Shown: piece after piece, positions 22,072 to 24,790 of the stretch
Numbering within the stretch: the stretch's first letter is position 1
How the letters are laid out: the number at the start of each line of letters is the position of its first letter
Assembly: GCF_003334765.1 (NCBI RefSeq)
Contig: NZ_QOWT01000029.1
DNA: 51,807 nucleotides
Reading direction: 5' to 3' (one strand)
Source of the DNA: Escherichia coli
GTDB lineage: Bacteria > Pseudomonadota > Gammaproteobacteria > Enterobacterales > Enterobacteriaceae
Notes under the pieces: generated by a model
Databases searched by the model: none
Told to the model about the DNA's origin: nothing
The model's input: only the letters and a program-made list of their open reading frames with translations
Made by a program: the position numbers and the translations under genes

Positions 22072-22087
22072 TTGTTAGTATTCTAAC
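22072..22087. promoter_or_regulatory. DeoR operator O2 at deoP2
   Basis: 16-bp palindrome TGTTAGTATTCTAACA, 44 bp upstream of deoC start. Confidence 0.75.
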
Positions 22088-22285
22088 ATCTACTCCGCAA
22101 CACACTTCGATGTACATCACAATTAAGGAAATCTACTTACAAGTTTGCATCACTGTAATGCGATTTGGTTCAAATAATTCACTTTCAAATGAATGCGTCA
22201 GTGGTGGCAAACGCATCAGGATCAAAGTGAACATCACGAAACTTCTTACAATGGCGCATCACCTTCGGCATAAAAGGAAAAGAAG

Positions 22286-23836
22286 ATGCCCACTTCTCAT
22301 GAAAATGCACTGCAACAACGTTGCCAGCAAATTGTCACCAGCCCGGTACTTAGCCCGGAGCAGAAGCGCCATTTTCTGGCACTGGAAGCAGAAAACAATC
22401 TGCCTTACCCCGCGTTGCCTGCCGAAGCCCGCCGCGCGCTGGATGAGGGTGTAATCTGCGATATGTTTGAAGGTCATGCGCCGTACAAACCGCGCTATGT
22501 CTTACCCGATTACGCCCGTTTTCTGGCGAACGGTTCCGAATGGCTGGAGCTGGAAGGCGCGAAAGATCTTGATGACGCACTCTCTCTGCTGACCATTCTT
22601 TACCACCACGTACCGTCGGTCACATCGATGCCGGTCTACCTGGGGCAACTGGATGCGTTGTTGCAACCGTATGTTAGAATTCTAACACAAGACGAGATCG
22701 ATATTCGAATAAAACGTTTCTGGCGTTACCTCGACAGAACCCTGCCAGATGCCTTTATGCACGCCAATATCGGCCCGTCTGATTCGCCCATTACCCGCGC
22801 AATCTTACGTGCAGACGCAGAGTTGAAGCAGGTTTCACCGAACCTGACCTTTATCTACGATCCTGAAATCACCCCTGATGACCTGCTGCTGGAAGTGGCG
22901 AAGAACATCTGTGAATGTAGCAAACCGCACATCGCCAACGGTCCGGTGCATGATAAAATTTTCACAAAAGGGGGCTACGGGATTGTGAGCTGTTACAACT
23001 CACTGCCGCTGGCGGGTGGTGGCAGCACGCTGGTACGCCTAAACCTGAAAGCCATTGCCGAGCGCAGTGAATCGCTGGAGGACTTCTTTACGCGCACTCT
23101 ACCGCACTACTGCCAACAGCAGATCGCCATCATCGATGCGCGGTGTGAATTCCTCTATCAACAATCACACTTCTTTGAGAATAGCTTCCTGGTGAAAGAA
23201 GGGCTGATTAACCCTGAACGTTTTGTGCCAATGTTTGGCATGTATGGGCTGGCGGAAGCGGTTAACTTGCTGTGTGAAAAAGAAGGAATTGCCGCGCGTT
23301 ACGGTAAAGAAGCCACCGCAAATGAAGTGGGTTATCGCATCAGCGCGCAACTGGCGGAGTTTGTCGCCAATACCCCTGTGAAATATGGCTGGCAAAAACG
23401 CGCCATGTTACACGCACAGTCGGGGATCAGTTCCGATATCGGCACCACGCCGGGCGCGCGTTTACCATATGGCGATGAGCCAGATCCGATTACCCATCTG
23501 CAAACTGTCGCGCCGCATCATGCTTATTATTATTCCGGCATCAGCGACATTCTGACGCTCGACGAAACCATCAAACGTAATCCGCAGGCGCTGGTACAGC
23601 TTTGCCTCGGTGCCTTTAAAGCCGGAATGCGTGAATTTACCGCCAATGTCAGCGGTAACGATCTGGTTCGCGTTACCGGTTATATGGTGCGTTTGTCGGA
23701 TTTAGAAAAATATCGCGCCGAAGGTTCACGCACCAACACTACCTGGCTGGGAGAAGAAGCCGCACGCAACACTCGTATTCTGGAACGTCAGCCGCGCGTG
23801 ATAAGCCATGAACAGCAGATGCGCTTTAGTCAGTAA
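22286..23836 (+). CDS. yjjI: YjjI, glycyl-radical-enzyme-like protein of unknown function (DUF3029 family)
   Basis: 516-aa ORF; C-terminal LVRVTGYMV resembles the glycyl radical fingerprint RVSGY; overlapped at its 3' end by the activase-like yjjW. Confidence 0.9.
22672..22687. promoter_or_regulatory. DeoR operator O1 (deoP1 region), inside the yjjI coding sequence
   Basis: Perfect 16-bp palindrome TGTTAGAATTCTAACA exactly 600 bp from O2. Confidence 0.75.
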
Positions 23837-24671
23837 GATTATCCCCTTCTCCTGCGTTGACGGGCCAGGCAGTCGTCTGGCTCTGTTTTTGCAGGGCTGC
23901 AATCTGCGCTGCAAAAACTGTCACAATCCGTGGACGATGGGGCGCTGTAATGATTGCGGAGAGTGCGTGCCGCAGTGTCCGCATCAGGCGTTGCAGATTA
24001 TCGACGGCAAAGTGGCGTGGAGCGCGGCTGTTTGCGAGCAATGTGATACCTGCCTGAAGATGTGCCCGCAACATGCCACGCCAATGGCGCAATCCATGAG
24101 CGTGGACGAGGTGCTTAACCATGTCCGCAAAGCGGTGCTGTTTATTGAAGGGATAACGGTAAGCGGCGGCGAAGCCACGACCCAGTTGCCGTTTGTGGTG
24201 GCGCTGTTTACTGCCATCAAAAACGATCCGCAACTGTGCCATCTCACCTGCCTCGTGGACAGTAACGGCATGTTGAGCGAAACCGGCTGGGAAAAATTGC
24301 TCCCGGTGTGTGACGGCGCAATGCTCGATCTCAAAGCGTGGGGAAGCGAATGTCATCAGCAATTAACCGGACGCGATAATCAGCAGATCAAGCGCAGCAT
24401 CTGTTTGCTGGCAGAGCGCGGTAAGCTGGCGGAACTGCGTTTGCTGGTAATCCCTGGCCAGGTGGATTATTTGCAACACATCGAAGAACTGGCGGCGTTA
24501 ATCAAGGGACTTGGCGATGTTCCGGTACGCCTGAACGCGTTTCATGCCCACGGCGTGTATGGCGAGGCGCAAAGCTGGCCGAGCGCCACGCAGGAAGACA
24601 TTGAGCCGTTGGCTGATGCGTTAAAGGTGCGCGGGGTGAGCCGGTTGATATTTCCGGCGCTGTATTTGTGA
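23808..24671 (+). CDS. yjjW: YjjW, radical SAM glycyl-radical activating enzyme-like protein
   Basis: 287-aa ORF; radical SAM CxxxCxxC (CNLRCKNC) plus two ferredoxin-like CxxCxxCxxxC motifs ([22 protein letters not shown]). Confidence 0.9.
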
Positions 24672-24790
24672 CATGCCGGATGTGGCCTACAGTTCGGCAC
24701 AGACTTGTAGGCATGATAAGACGCGTCAAGCGTCGCATCAGGCATTGTGCGCCAACTGCCGGATGCGGCGTGAACGCCTTATCCGGCCTA
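24672..24790. repeat. BIME/REP cluster between yjjW and yjjV
   Basis: GCCGGATGTGGCCTACA, GATAAGACGCG...CGCATCAGGC, GCCGGATGCGGCGTGAACGCCTTATCCGGCCTACA; last unit overlaps the yjjV stop codon. Confidence 0.75.

What the first reader, a model, noticed from the sequence alone, without database searches (positions are those of the whole stretch)
22286..24671. yjjI-yjjW: compact glycyl-radical-enzyme-like protein with a dedicated radical SAM activase, substrate unknown
YjjI (516 aa) is far shorter than canonical glycyl radical enzymes yet carries a C-terminal RVTGY motif resembling the RVSGY glycyl-radical fingerprint. The overlapping downstream gene encodes a radical SAM protein with CxxxCxxC plus two ferredoxin-like 4-cysteine motifs, the hallmark of glycyl-radical activases. 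The pair looks like a self-contained anaerobic radical enzyme system whose chemistry is, to my knowledge, undefined.
Basis: partly seen in the sequence, partly recalled or inferred. Interest (0 to 1): 0.55.

Follow-up and report, generated by a model that had tools for sequence, protein, structure and literature searches.

The report
Orphan glycyl-radical enzyme pair YjjI–YjjW
These two overlapping E. coli genes encode a stripped-down, oxygen-sensitive radical enzyme and its own activating enzyme; databases already list the pair but nobody has found its substrate, and here its fold is closest to the anaerobic ribonucleotide reductase and it lies near nucleoside-breakdown genes in several lineages.

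Summary
yjjI (22286-23836, 516 aa) and yjjW (23808-24671, 287 aa) overlap by 29 nt. YjjI carries RVTGY (aa 462-466). YjjW carries CX3CX2C and two ferredoxin-type Cys motifs.

I found no biochemical paper and no solved structure.

New here:
- C236 (SCYN) aligns with the thiyl cysteine of NrdD, PflB and YbiW.
- YjjI lacks NrdD's second cysteine and zinc ribbon, PFL's Cys-Cys pair and the dehydratases' GCxE glutamate. It therefore belongs to none of the characterised reaction classes.
- An activase gene is adjacent in 164 of 164 loci where it could be seen, across several phyla. No third gene is universal.
- Nucleoside uptake or catabolism genes (deoC, add, udp-like, PnrA-type ABC importer) lie nearby in Enterobacterales and in several actinobacterial lineages.

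The substrate is still unknown. A ribosyl or pentose-phosphate substrate is a testable lead (about 0.2).

The parts
22286..23836 (+). yjjI CDS, 516 aa: core-only glycyl radical enzyme of the YjjI family
22988..22999 (+). Cys-loop motif S235-C236-Y237-N238; C236 is the predicted thiyl-radical cysteine
   Evidence: S235, C236 and N238 are invariant in 32 diverse homologues. The motif sits at the tip of a beta-hairpin (strands 231-234 and 238-241). C236 aligns with PflB C419, the NrdD C384 loop and the Cys of YbiW GCIE.
23669..23683 (+). Gly-loop motif R462-V-T-G465-Y; G465 is the predicted glycyl-radical site
   Evidence: R462 and G465 are invariant. The motif is at the tip of the hairpin 460-462/467-469 and aligns with the NrdD Gly loop.
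23808..24671 (+). yjjW CDS, 287 aa: radical SAM activase dedicated to YjjI
   Evidence: TIGR04041 397.4 bits, with lower matches to other GRE activases. Radical_SAM and Fer4 Pfam domains. PFL-AE structures at E 2e-18.
23808..23836 (+). 29-nt overlap of yjjI and yjjW, suggesting translational coupling
   Evidence: Overlaps of 4-53 nt recur in most loci from other phyla.
23898..23921 (+). CX3CX2C motif (C31, C35, C38) for the SAM-cleaving [4Fe-4S] cluster
23946..24065 (+). Ferredoxin-like insert with two CX2CX2CX3C motifs (aa 47-57, 76-86), predicted to hold auxiliary clusters
   Evidence: Present in the proteobacterial, firmicute and fusobacterial groups; absent from the actinobacterial groups.
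22212..22252 (+). Predicted yjjI promoter: FNR-type site CGCAT-CAGG-ATCAA (22212-22225, centre 22218.5) and -10 TACAAT (22247-22252)
   Evidence: GGATCAAA and TACA(A/C)T are conserved in 13 genera. The spacing fits a class II site at -41.5 (inference). The FNR ChIP peak of PMC3688515 converts to about window 22193.
22274..22278 (+). Shine-Dalgarno AAGGA, 7 nt before the yjjI ATG
   Evidence: Sequence
22073..22088 (.). DeoR operator O2-like (1 mismatch) in the deoC-yjjI spacer; regulatory context shared with deoCABD
22672..22687 (.). Perfect DeoR operator (O1) inside yjjI, codons 129-134 (VRILT)
   Evidence: Kept at the same ORF offset in 76 of 80 Enterobacterales loci.
22951..22966 (.). DeoR OE-like site (4 mismatches) inside yjjI, 279 bp from O1

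Best explanation
yjjI-yjjW is a self-contained, two-gene glycyl-radical enzyme system.

Inferred mechanism, by analogy with PflA/PflB and NrdG/NrdD: under anaerobiosis YjjW uses its CX3CX2C [4Fe-4S] cluster to cleave S-adenosylmethionine. The resulting 5'-deoxyadenosyl radical abstracts a hydrogen from G465 in the C-terminal RVTGY loop of YjjI. The stable glycyl radical then generates a thiyl radical on C236 in the facing SCYN loop, and that thiyl radical abstracts a hydrogen atom from the substrate.

Shown here by computation: YjjI is the bare catalytic barrel of the superfamily, with about 450 of its 516 residues superposing on every solved GRE. It is closest to class III ribonucleotide reductase.

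YjjI has only one conserved cysteine. It has no equivalent of NrdD C175, no PFL Cys-Cys pair and no Cys+2 glutamate. I therefore infer a reaction that needs neither a second thiol nor an acyl-enzyme intermediate. A redox-neutral radical elimination or lyase reaction on a small anionic substrate is most likely. The invariant R251 sits where PFL has its carboxylate-binding R435, and R70, K213, R392 and R501 are also conserved.

In E. coli the operon is FNR-activated (literature). I predict a class II FNR promoter 26 nt upstream of the ATG.

The substrate is unknown. The best lead, at about 0.2, is a nucleoside-derived ribosyl or pentose-phosphate compound.
For: - Family models: TIGR04040 and TIGR04041 score above their cut-offs; PF11230.
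- Profile against PDB sequences: NrdD 1e-5, YbiW 1e-4, HPAD and PFL.
- Residue mapping: C236 aligns with PflB C419 and R251 with R435, and C236 with the NrdD C384 loop.
- Conservation: 26 residues are invariant in 32 sequences spanning several phyla, including C236, G465 and R251. RV/I-T/S-G-Y/F and SCYN occur in nearly all intact full-length representatives; two divergent ones lack SCYN.
- Pairing: the activase is adjacent on the same strand in 164 of 164 loci where the flank is visible.
- Expression: FNR ChIP peak with anaerobic induction in E. coli (PMC3688515); 4.3-fold anaerobic induction in Yersinia intermedia (PMC3792023); listed as FNR-activated, among anaerobic respiration genes such as nrf, in the HU-regulon study, and listed with frd, dms, nar and nap genes under the GO term 'cellular respiration' in another transcriptome. 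A conserved GGATCAAA plus TACAAT lies upstream.
- Retention: present in 5423 of 5426 E. coli genomes.
Against: - No experiment shows a glycyl radical on YjjI or any activity, and none was found in the searchable literature.
- The E. coli protein itself does not reach Pfam significance for NRDD (E 0.4) and gives no PFL-like or Gly_radical hit. Homology to characterised GREs appears only at profile or structure level.
- The structure is a prediction, and I could not read its coordinates. The Gly-Cys distance and the pocket were therefore not measured.
- The reaction type is argued from missing residues, which is weak evidence.
- The predicted FNR site has only one good half-site, and the ChIP peak centre lies 25 bp away from it.
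Confidence: 0.85

Rival explanations
1. Nucleoside-linked reading. YjjI is an RNR-like radical enzyme acting on a ribosyl or deoxyribosyl compound (a nucleoside, ribose or deoxyribose phosphate) in anaerobic nucleoside catabolism, for example a redox-neutral 2-dehydration that feeds or bypasses DeoC. This refines the best explanation rather than excluding it.
For: - The top structural neighbour is class III RNR.
- In Enterobacteriaceae and Hafniaceae yjjI is divergent from deoCABD. The deo operators O1 and OE lie inside its ORF.
- Outside Enterobacterales, nucleoside genes flank the pair. L097 has a PnrA/Bmp-type ABC importer directly upstream (Pfam Bmp 2e-57) plus add, a udp-like gene and deoC. 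L138 has deoC directly upstream on the same strand (222.7 bits). L141 has add (588.7 bits) and an mtnA-like gene. L137 has add directly upstream. L119, L121 and L117 have a Bmp binding protein, with the ATPase in the first two.
- By rough estimate about one such gene is expected by chance in the 505 kb of flank surveyed.
- Hu et al. 2009 placed YjjI in a deoxyribonucleoside module.
Against: - Most contexts carry no nucleoside gene: L082, L087-L089, L091, and the majorities of groups 2 and 12.
- Three look-ups made after the idea was formed found none. One of them (L179/L180) had only a DHO_dh-family gene.
- Proteus keeps yjjIW without deo.
- The actinobacterial cases may descend from a single ancestral arrangement, so they are not independent.
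- No purine, 2'-dG or other riboswitch lies upstream of yjjI in 56 loci.
- Closeness to NrdD may only reflect that both are small, core-only barrels.
Confidence: 0.2
2. YjjI is a second, minimal anaerobic ribonucleotide reductase that is redundant with NrdD.
Against: - NrdD C175 falls in an alignment gap.
- The four-Cys zinc ribbon (C644, C647, C662, C665) is absent. YjjI has no CxxC motif at all, and the NrdD insert is gapped in the alignment.
- There is no ATP-cone domain.
- The activase is PflA-type, not NrdG-type: the NrdG models score 45-63 bits against cut-offs of 126-131.
- From my own knowledge, E. coli nrdD mutants cannot grow strictly anaerobically, so YjjI does not substitute for NrdD.
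Confidence: 0.03
3. YjjI is not a catalyst but a radical 'spare part' or carrier like GrcA (YfiD), or a decaying relic.
For: It is unusually short for a GRE, and no phenotype has been reported in the papers found.
Against: - It has a complete barrel of about 450 residues, not just a Gly-loop domain.
- It has its own conserved Cys loop and 26 invariant residues lining conserved motifs across phyla.
- It has a dedicated activase in 164 of 164 loci.
- It is intact in 5423 of 5426 E. coli genomes and is regulated by FNR.
Confidence: 0.02
4. YjjI acts on a central-metabolism acid unrelated to nucleosides, for example as a 2-oxo or hydroxy-acid lyase, dehydratase or decarboxylase serving anaerobic or nitrate respiration.
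For: R251 aligns with the pyruvate-binding R435 of PFL. There is no universal neighbour gene, which suggests a ubiquitous substrate. Two studies place yjjI among anaerobic respiration genes: one assigns it to a conserved E. coli-Salmonella co-expression module that contains narGHJI, and the other lists it with nar, nap, frd and dms genes under the GO term 'cellular respiration' (PMC3228777). In L179/L180 a PFOR gene lies directly upstream on the same strand.
Against: There is no PFL Cys-Cys pair (S235-C236) and no GCxE glutamate. No specific acid is indicated by any context. This reading does not explain the excess of nucleoside genes in the flanks.
Confidence: 0.35

Closest known systems
[quoted passage not shown]
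   Different: YjjI has no equivalent of C175, no zinc ribbon before the Gly loop, no ATP-cone and only 13-18% identity. Its activase is PflA-type, with a ferredoxin insert, rather than NrdG-type.
Pyruvate formate-lyase PflB with activase PflA
   Different: Ser replaces the acyl-carrying C418. YjjI is about 245 residues shorter and lacks the outer helical layers. There is no significant Pfam PFL-like or Gly_radical match.
GRE 1,2-eliminases (glycerol and propanediol dehydratases, CutC, HypD, IslA, PflD/YbiW)
   Different: The general-base Glu at Cys+2 (GCxE) is Asn238 in YjjI. YjjI is about 250-300 residues shorter. It is not found in the catabolic operons or microcompartment loci typical of these enzymes.
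GRE-activating radical SAM enzymes with auxiliary clusters (TIGR02494: PflC, HpdA, CutD, BssD)
   Same: CX3CX2C, a GGE motif and a two-motif ferredoxin insert directly after the cluster loop.
   Different: YjjW scores below the TIGR02494 cut-off (131.7 against 174.35) and forms its own family, TIGR04041. Actinobacterial members have lost, or never had, the insert.
GrcA (YfiD) spare-part glycyl radical protein
   Same: Short for the superfamily, with an RVxGY loop.
   Different: GrcA consists only of the Gly-loop domain (127 aa, from my own knowledge). YjjI has the whole barrel and its own Cys loop.

Membership tests
Glycyl radical enzyme superfamily | Ten-stranded alpha/beta barrel fold | tested here: met
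Glycyl radical enzyme superfamily | C-terminal Gly loop RVxG[FWY] with a conserved Gly | tested here: met
   RVTGY at aa 462-466. R462 and G465 are invariant in 32 sequences. The loop is the tip of a hairpin.
Glycyl radical enzyme superfamily | Cys loop with a conserved thiyl cysteine | tested here: met
   C236 is invariant. It aligns with PflB C419, the NrdD C384 loop and the YbiW Cys.
Glycyl radical enzyme superfamily | Cognate radical SAM activase encoded alongside | tested here: met
   Adjacent on the same strand in 164 of 164 loci with a visible flank.
Glycyl radical enzyme superfamily | Stable glycyl radical (EPR doublet, O2 cleavage at Gly) | not testable with these tools
   Needs anaerobic biochemistry.
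YjjI family (TIGR04040 / PF11230) | Score above the curated cut-off over the full length | tested here: met
   787.9 bits against 498.3, covering aa 11-504. PF11230 4.2e-220.
Class III RNR (NrdD) | Second active-site cysteine (E. coli C175) | tested here: not met
   NrdD N174-C175 fall in a gap opposite YjjI P69-R70-Y71/V72. C236 is the only conserved Cys.
Class III RNR (NrdD) | Four-Cys zinc ribbon before the Gly loop | tested here: not met
   NrdD has C644/C647/C662/C665. YjjI has no CxxC motif, and the insert is gapped in the profile alignment.
Class III RNR (NrdD) | ATP-cone or allosteric N-terminal region, and a PF13597 match | tested here: not met
   Pfam shows only PF11230; NRDD has E 0.4. 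Some homologues do carry precomputed PF13597 hits.
Class III RNR (NrdD) | NrdG-type activase | tested here: not met
   The NrdG models score 45.3 and 62.6 bits against cut-offs of 126-131. PflA and PFLE-type models score higher.
Pyruvate formate-lyase | Adjacent Cys-Cys pair (C418-C419) | tested here: not met
   S235-C236 align with C418-C419.
Pyruvate formate-lyase | Carboxylate-binding Arg (R435) | tested here: met
   The invariant R251 aligns with R435. The hhalign probability is only 69%.
GRE 1,2-eliminases | GCxE motif (Glu at Cys+2) | tested here: not met
   SCYN aligns with YbiW GCIE. N238 is invariant.
GRE-activating radical SAM enzymes | CX3CX2C cluster motif and GGE SAM motif | tested here: met
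   C31/C35/C38. GGE at aa 120-122. Radical_SAM PF04055 5e-13.
GRE-activating radical SAM enzymes | Family model above cut-off | tested here: met
   TIGR04041 scores 397.4 against 250.2. The generic TIGR02494 model scores 131.7, below its cut-off of 174.35.
Anti-phage defence systems (PADLOC) | Match to any defence-system model | tested here: not met
   No match for either protein.

The most novel reading that the evidence does not exclude
YjjI may be a ribonucleotide-reductase-like radical enzyme working in catabolism rather than in DNA-precursor synthesis. It would act on a nucleoside-derived ribosyl or pentose-phosphate compound, for example through a redox-neutral RNR-type 2-dehydration. 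That would add an oxygen-independent branch to the deo nucleoside pathway and define a new reaction class of glycyl radical enzymes. In E. coli it would be wired to the deo operon through the DeoR operators that lie inside its own coding sequence.
Probability: 0.2. Interest if true: 0.8.

Novelty: already known. Interest (0 to 1): 0.45.

Why it matters
YjjI-YjjW is one of the few predicted radical enzyme systems in E. coli K-12 that still has no known reaction. It is retained in essentially every E. coli genome, and relatives occur in Actinobacteria, Bacteroidota, Firmicutes and Fusobacteriota.

It is the smallest catalytic-looking member of the glycyl radical superfamily and sits structurally between the ribonucleotide reductases and the PFL-like enzymes. 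Its chemistry would therefore say something about how this fold diversified.

The residue map and the nucleoside-context lead turn 'unknown function' into a short list of substrates and mutants that an anaerobic biochemistry laboratory could test directly.

Tried and rejected
- **PDB by sequence.** The single YjjI sequence found nothing. Only the family profile reached NrdD and PFL-like chains.
- **Genome-contig scan.** I ran it with the single E. coli protein. It returned only Enterobacterales, so phylogenetic breadth had to come from the metagenome scan and exact-protein look-ups.
- **ORF callers.** My first two ORF callers failed on high-GC contigs and wrongly suggested missing activases. 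Direct tblastn replaced them.
- **Most frequent neighbour cluster.** It appeared in 7 of 21 groups but proved to be generic ABC ATPase domains at varying distances, so I rejected it as chance.
- **deo adjacency.** I first treated it as plain synteny, because Proteus keeps yjjIW next to ytjB/serB without deo. I reopened the question when deoC, add and Bmp genes appeared in Actinobacteria.
- **Riboswitches.** A scan of 56 diverse loci found none upstream of yjjI.
- **PADLOC.** No hits.
- **Canonical FNR site.** TTGAT-N4-ATCAA with up to 2 mismatches matched only the deoP2 CRP-1 region. The promoter proposal rests instead on the conserved half-site.
- **Literature.** Searches for any characterisation were negative within the open-access library.
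- **Pocket geometry.** The model's coordinates are not exposed, so I could not analyse the pocket.
Full report
**What is there.** The window is E. coli chromosome. The 2.8-kb segment is 100% identical to several complete genomes. It is present at 80% coverage or more in 5423 of 5426 complete E. coli genomes, where it is annotated yjjI ('YjjI family glycine radical enzyme') and yjjW ('YjjW family glycine radical enzyme activase'). [quoted passage not shown]

RVTGY is at aa 462-466. YjjW has C31-X3-C35-X2-C38, two CX2CX2CX3C motifs (aa 47-57, 76-86) and a GGE motif. deoC lies divergently upstream and yjjV convergently downstream.

**Family assignment.** YjjI scores 787.9 bits on NCBIfam TIGR04040 (cut-off 498.3; model type 'hypothetical equivalog', meaning a family of unknown function) and 4e-220 on Pfam PF11230 'Glycyl radical enzyme YjjI-like'. 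Its only other Pfam hit is an insignificant NRDD match (E 0.4). YjjW scores 397.4 bits on TIGR04041. It gives lower, sub-threshold matches to the activases of HypD, PFL, CutC, HPAD and BSS, and it has Radical_SAM and 4Fe-4S dicluster domains. PFL-activating enzyme structures match at E 2e-18.

In the searchable literature I found no biochemical or structural study of either protein. No PDB chain matches YjjI by sequence. The structural neighbours are only 11-18% identical to it, so the family has no solved structure in the 2026 copy of the PDB.

**Is YjjI really a glycyl radical enzyme?** A search of 1.84 billion representative proteins found 540 relatives. The intact full-length ones are 490-532 aa. 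Nearly all of these keep R-V/I-T/S-G-Y/F and S-C-Y-N; two divergent ones lack SCYN.

A profile of the family also reaches solved GREs by sequence: NrdD at 1e-5 across the C-terminal Gly-loop domain, and YbiW at 1e-4, where 'dYgiaSCyn' aligns with 'DYAAIGCIE'. YjjI is therefore essentially the shared catalytic core of the superfamily with little else attached.

**Which reaction class?** Profile-to-sequence alignments against E. coli NrdD and PflB, with positions checked on the translated genes, give the following map:
- C236 corresponds to the NrdD C384 loop and to PflB C419.
- S235 corresponds to PflB C418.
- R251 corresponds to PflB R435, the pyruvate-binding arginine.
- NrdD N174-C175 fall in a gap opposite YjjI P69-R70-Y71.

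The NrdD zinc ribbon (C644, C647, C662, C665) has no counterpart. YjjI has no CxxC motif, and the insert is gapped in the alignment. The Glu at Cys+2 of the dehydratases is Asn238.

Across 32 sequences from several phyla, 26 residues are invariant: G83, L102, Y106, G120, D123, D150, F157, H159, N186, T196, P214, S235, C236, N238, R251, E305, G340, H376, Q378, G380, D384, R392, G418, R462, G465 and R501. C236 is the only conserved cysteine.

YjjI therefore fails the defining tests for an RNR, a formate-lyase and a GCxE eliminase, while it passes every computable test for the superfamily. I infer chemistry that needs one thiyl radical and no second thiol. The substrate is probably anionic, given the conserved Arg, Lys and His residues. 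This step is inference, not observation.

**The pair as a unit.** I examined 170 loci: 80 Enterobacterales genomes, 80 diverse metagenome contigs and 10 exact-protein look-ups. A YjjW-type gene lies on the same strand next to yjjI in all 164 loci where the contig extends far enough. In 162 it is immediately downstream, usually overlapping by 4-53 nt. In one it is 215 nt downstream, and in one it is upstream.

Named relatives include Anoxybacter, Halanaerobiales, Haliovirga (Fusobacteriota), Ancylomarina (Bacteroidota), Acidimicrobiia, Nanopelagicales and Dactylosporangium.

The activase comes in two forms. The first is about 280-295 aa with both ferredoxin-type motifs. The second is 231-252 aa with none, and it occurs in the actinobacterial groups. 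The auxiliary clusters are therefore not essential to the system.

**Neighbours.** After grouping the loci at 70% YjjI identity (21 groups), no third gene is universal. The most frequent neighbour cluster is generic ABC ATPase domains.

In Enterobacteriaceae and Hafniaceae the order deoA-deoC / yjjI-yjjW / yjjV-yjjU-osmY is conserved. In Proteus the pair sits beside ytjB-serB-radA-nadR without deo.

Nucleoside genes nevertheless recur next to the pair in high-GC (probably actinobacterial) contigs:
- L097 has a PnrA/Bmp-type ABC importer directly upstream on the same strand (Pfam Bmp 2e-57). Adenosine deaminase, a uridine-phosphorylase-like gene and deoC (231.8 bits) lie within 5 kb downstream.
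- L138 has deoC (222.7 bits) directly upstream on the same strand.
- L141 has adenosine deaminase (588.7 bits) and an MtnA-like pentose-1-phosphate isomerase.
- L137 has the end of an adenosine deaminase gene directly upstream.
- L119, L121 and L117 have Bmp-type binding proteins, with the ATPase in the first two.

MtnA-like genes also occur in L140 and L147, and Bmp-type permeases lie 6 kb away in L090.

The flanks surveyed outside Enterobacterales total 505 kb in 76 loci. By my rough estimate about one such gene would be expected there by chance, against about 15 genes in at least 7 contexts.

Three things weigh against the link. Most contexts have none of these genes. Three look-ups made after I formed the idea found none; one of them had only a DHO_dh-family gene with a PFOR. 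The actinobacterial cases may also share ancestry. No riboswitch precedes yjjI in 56 loci.

I therefore rate a nucleoside or pentose substrate at about 0.2. An earlier network study had already placed YjjI in a 'degradation of deoxyribonucleosides' module (PMC2672614).

**Regulation in E. coli.** Myers et al. list yjjI among operons directly activated by FNR, with a ChIP peak at 4,615,181 and 'TSS not known' (PMC3688515). I obtained the 1,977-bp offset between genome versions from the sigma-54 site in yjjW. With that offset the peak maps to about window 22193, which is 93 bp upstream of the ATG.

An alignment of 14 genera shows a nearly invariant GGATCAAA (22219-22226) followed 21 nt later by TACAAT/TACACT (22247-22252). 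The 14-mer CGCAT-CAGG-ATCAA is centred at 22218.5. That is -41.5 from a start near 22260, the geometry of a class II FNR promoter. The promoter call is an inference, because only one half-site is good.

Other published expression data are consistent with anaerobic control. Yersinia intermedia induces the gene 4.3-fold anaerobically. The HU-regulon study lists it as FNR-activated, among anaerobic respiration genes such as nrf. A multi-species co-expression analysis placed it in a conserved E. coli-Salmonella module that contains narGHJI, and another transcriptome lists it with frd, dms, nar and nap genes under the GO term 'cellular respiration'.

**Entanglement with deo.** The DeoR operator consensus occurs three times:
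- with one mismatch at 22073-22088, in the spacer;
- perfectly at 22672-22687, inside yjjI, where it encodes V-R-I-L-T in a loop that varies across the family;
- with four mismatches at 22951-22966, also inside yjjI.

The spacings are 599 and 279 bp, which match the O2-O1 and O1-OE distances I recall from the deo literature. The intragenic O1 is kept at the same ORF offset in 76 of 80 Enterobacterales loci. It is missing only in Proteus, where deo is not adjacent. CRP ChIP peaks were reported both inside yjjI and in the yjjI/deoC spacer.

Transcription from deoP1 must therefore run antisense through the first ~390 nt of yjjI, and DeoR loops would enclose the yjjI promoter. Whether this couples the two units or sets them against each other is unknown.

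**Verdict.** As stated, the finding is already known: a catalogued orphan family. What this analysis adds is:
- the structural placement, a core-only barrel closest to NrdD;
- a residue-level exclusion from every characterised reaction class;
- the strict two-gene modularity across phyla;
- a predicted FNR promoter;
- a moderately supported, testable link to nucleoside catabolism.

Noticed in passing
window 22073-22088, 22672-22687, 22951-22966: Three DeoR-operator-like sites spaced 599 and 279 bp apart. The perfect one (O1) and the OE-like one lie inside the yjjI coding sequence; O1 encodes VRILT, codons 129-134. O1 is kept at the same ORF offset in 76 of 80 Enterobacterales loci and is absent in Proteus, where deo is not the neighbour. 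Transcription from deoP1 would run antisense to the 5' end of yjjI.
   Followed up: partly
window 23877-23893: The sequence CTGGCTCTGTTTTTGCA inside yjjW, in the sense orientation, is the motif of a strong intragenic sigma-54 ChIP peak (IS57) reported in PMC4591121. No downstream target is evident.
   Followed up: no
window 24672-24787: The yjjW-yjjV spacer contains REP-like repeats (GCCGGATG...CCTTATCCGGCCTAC). The 2.8-kb query matched a median of 35 places per E. coli genome.
   Followed up: no
window 22212-22252: A conserved GGATCAAA half-site and a TACAAT -10 lie upstream of yjjI in 13 genera, with spacing that fits a class II FNR promoter. No transcription start has been published ('TSS not known' in PMC3688515).
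   Followed up: partly
L082, L088, L097, L109-L113, L129, L141 (activase genes): Actinobacterial YjjW homologues are 231-252 aa and lack both ferredoxin-type Cys motifs. All proteobacterial, firmicute and fusobacterial homologues examined have two.
   Followed up: partly
L110 5410-7898 (also L109, L113, L116, L120, L122): In low-GC freshwater contigs (group 12), phoU and a PhoR/PhoB-like two-component pair lie directly upstream of yjjI. The response-regulator gene is on the same strand and ends about 100 nt before yjjI.
   Followed up: no
L179 4883-9932 and L180 4733-9782: A 1220-aa PFOR-type oxidoreductase gene, a DHO_dh-family gene (dihydroorotate or dihydropyrimidine dehydrogenase type) and a ytfJ-like gene precede yjjI-yjjW on the same strand.
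   Followed up: no
L114 11102-11306; L115 1475-1558: A tandem glycine riboswitch lies before a 963-aa gene just downstream of yjjW. A c-di-GMP-II riboswitch lies 1.5 kb upstream of yjjI in another contig. Both appear to belong to neighbouring genes rather than to yjjI.
   Followed up: no
L097 10305-12059 and L141 10402-10908: A GNAT-type acetyltransferase domain is encoded immediately downstream of yjjW in two different actinobacterial groups.
   Followed up: no
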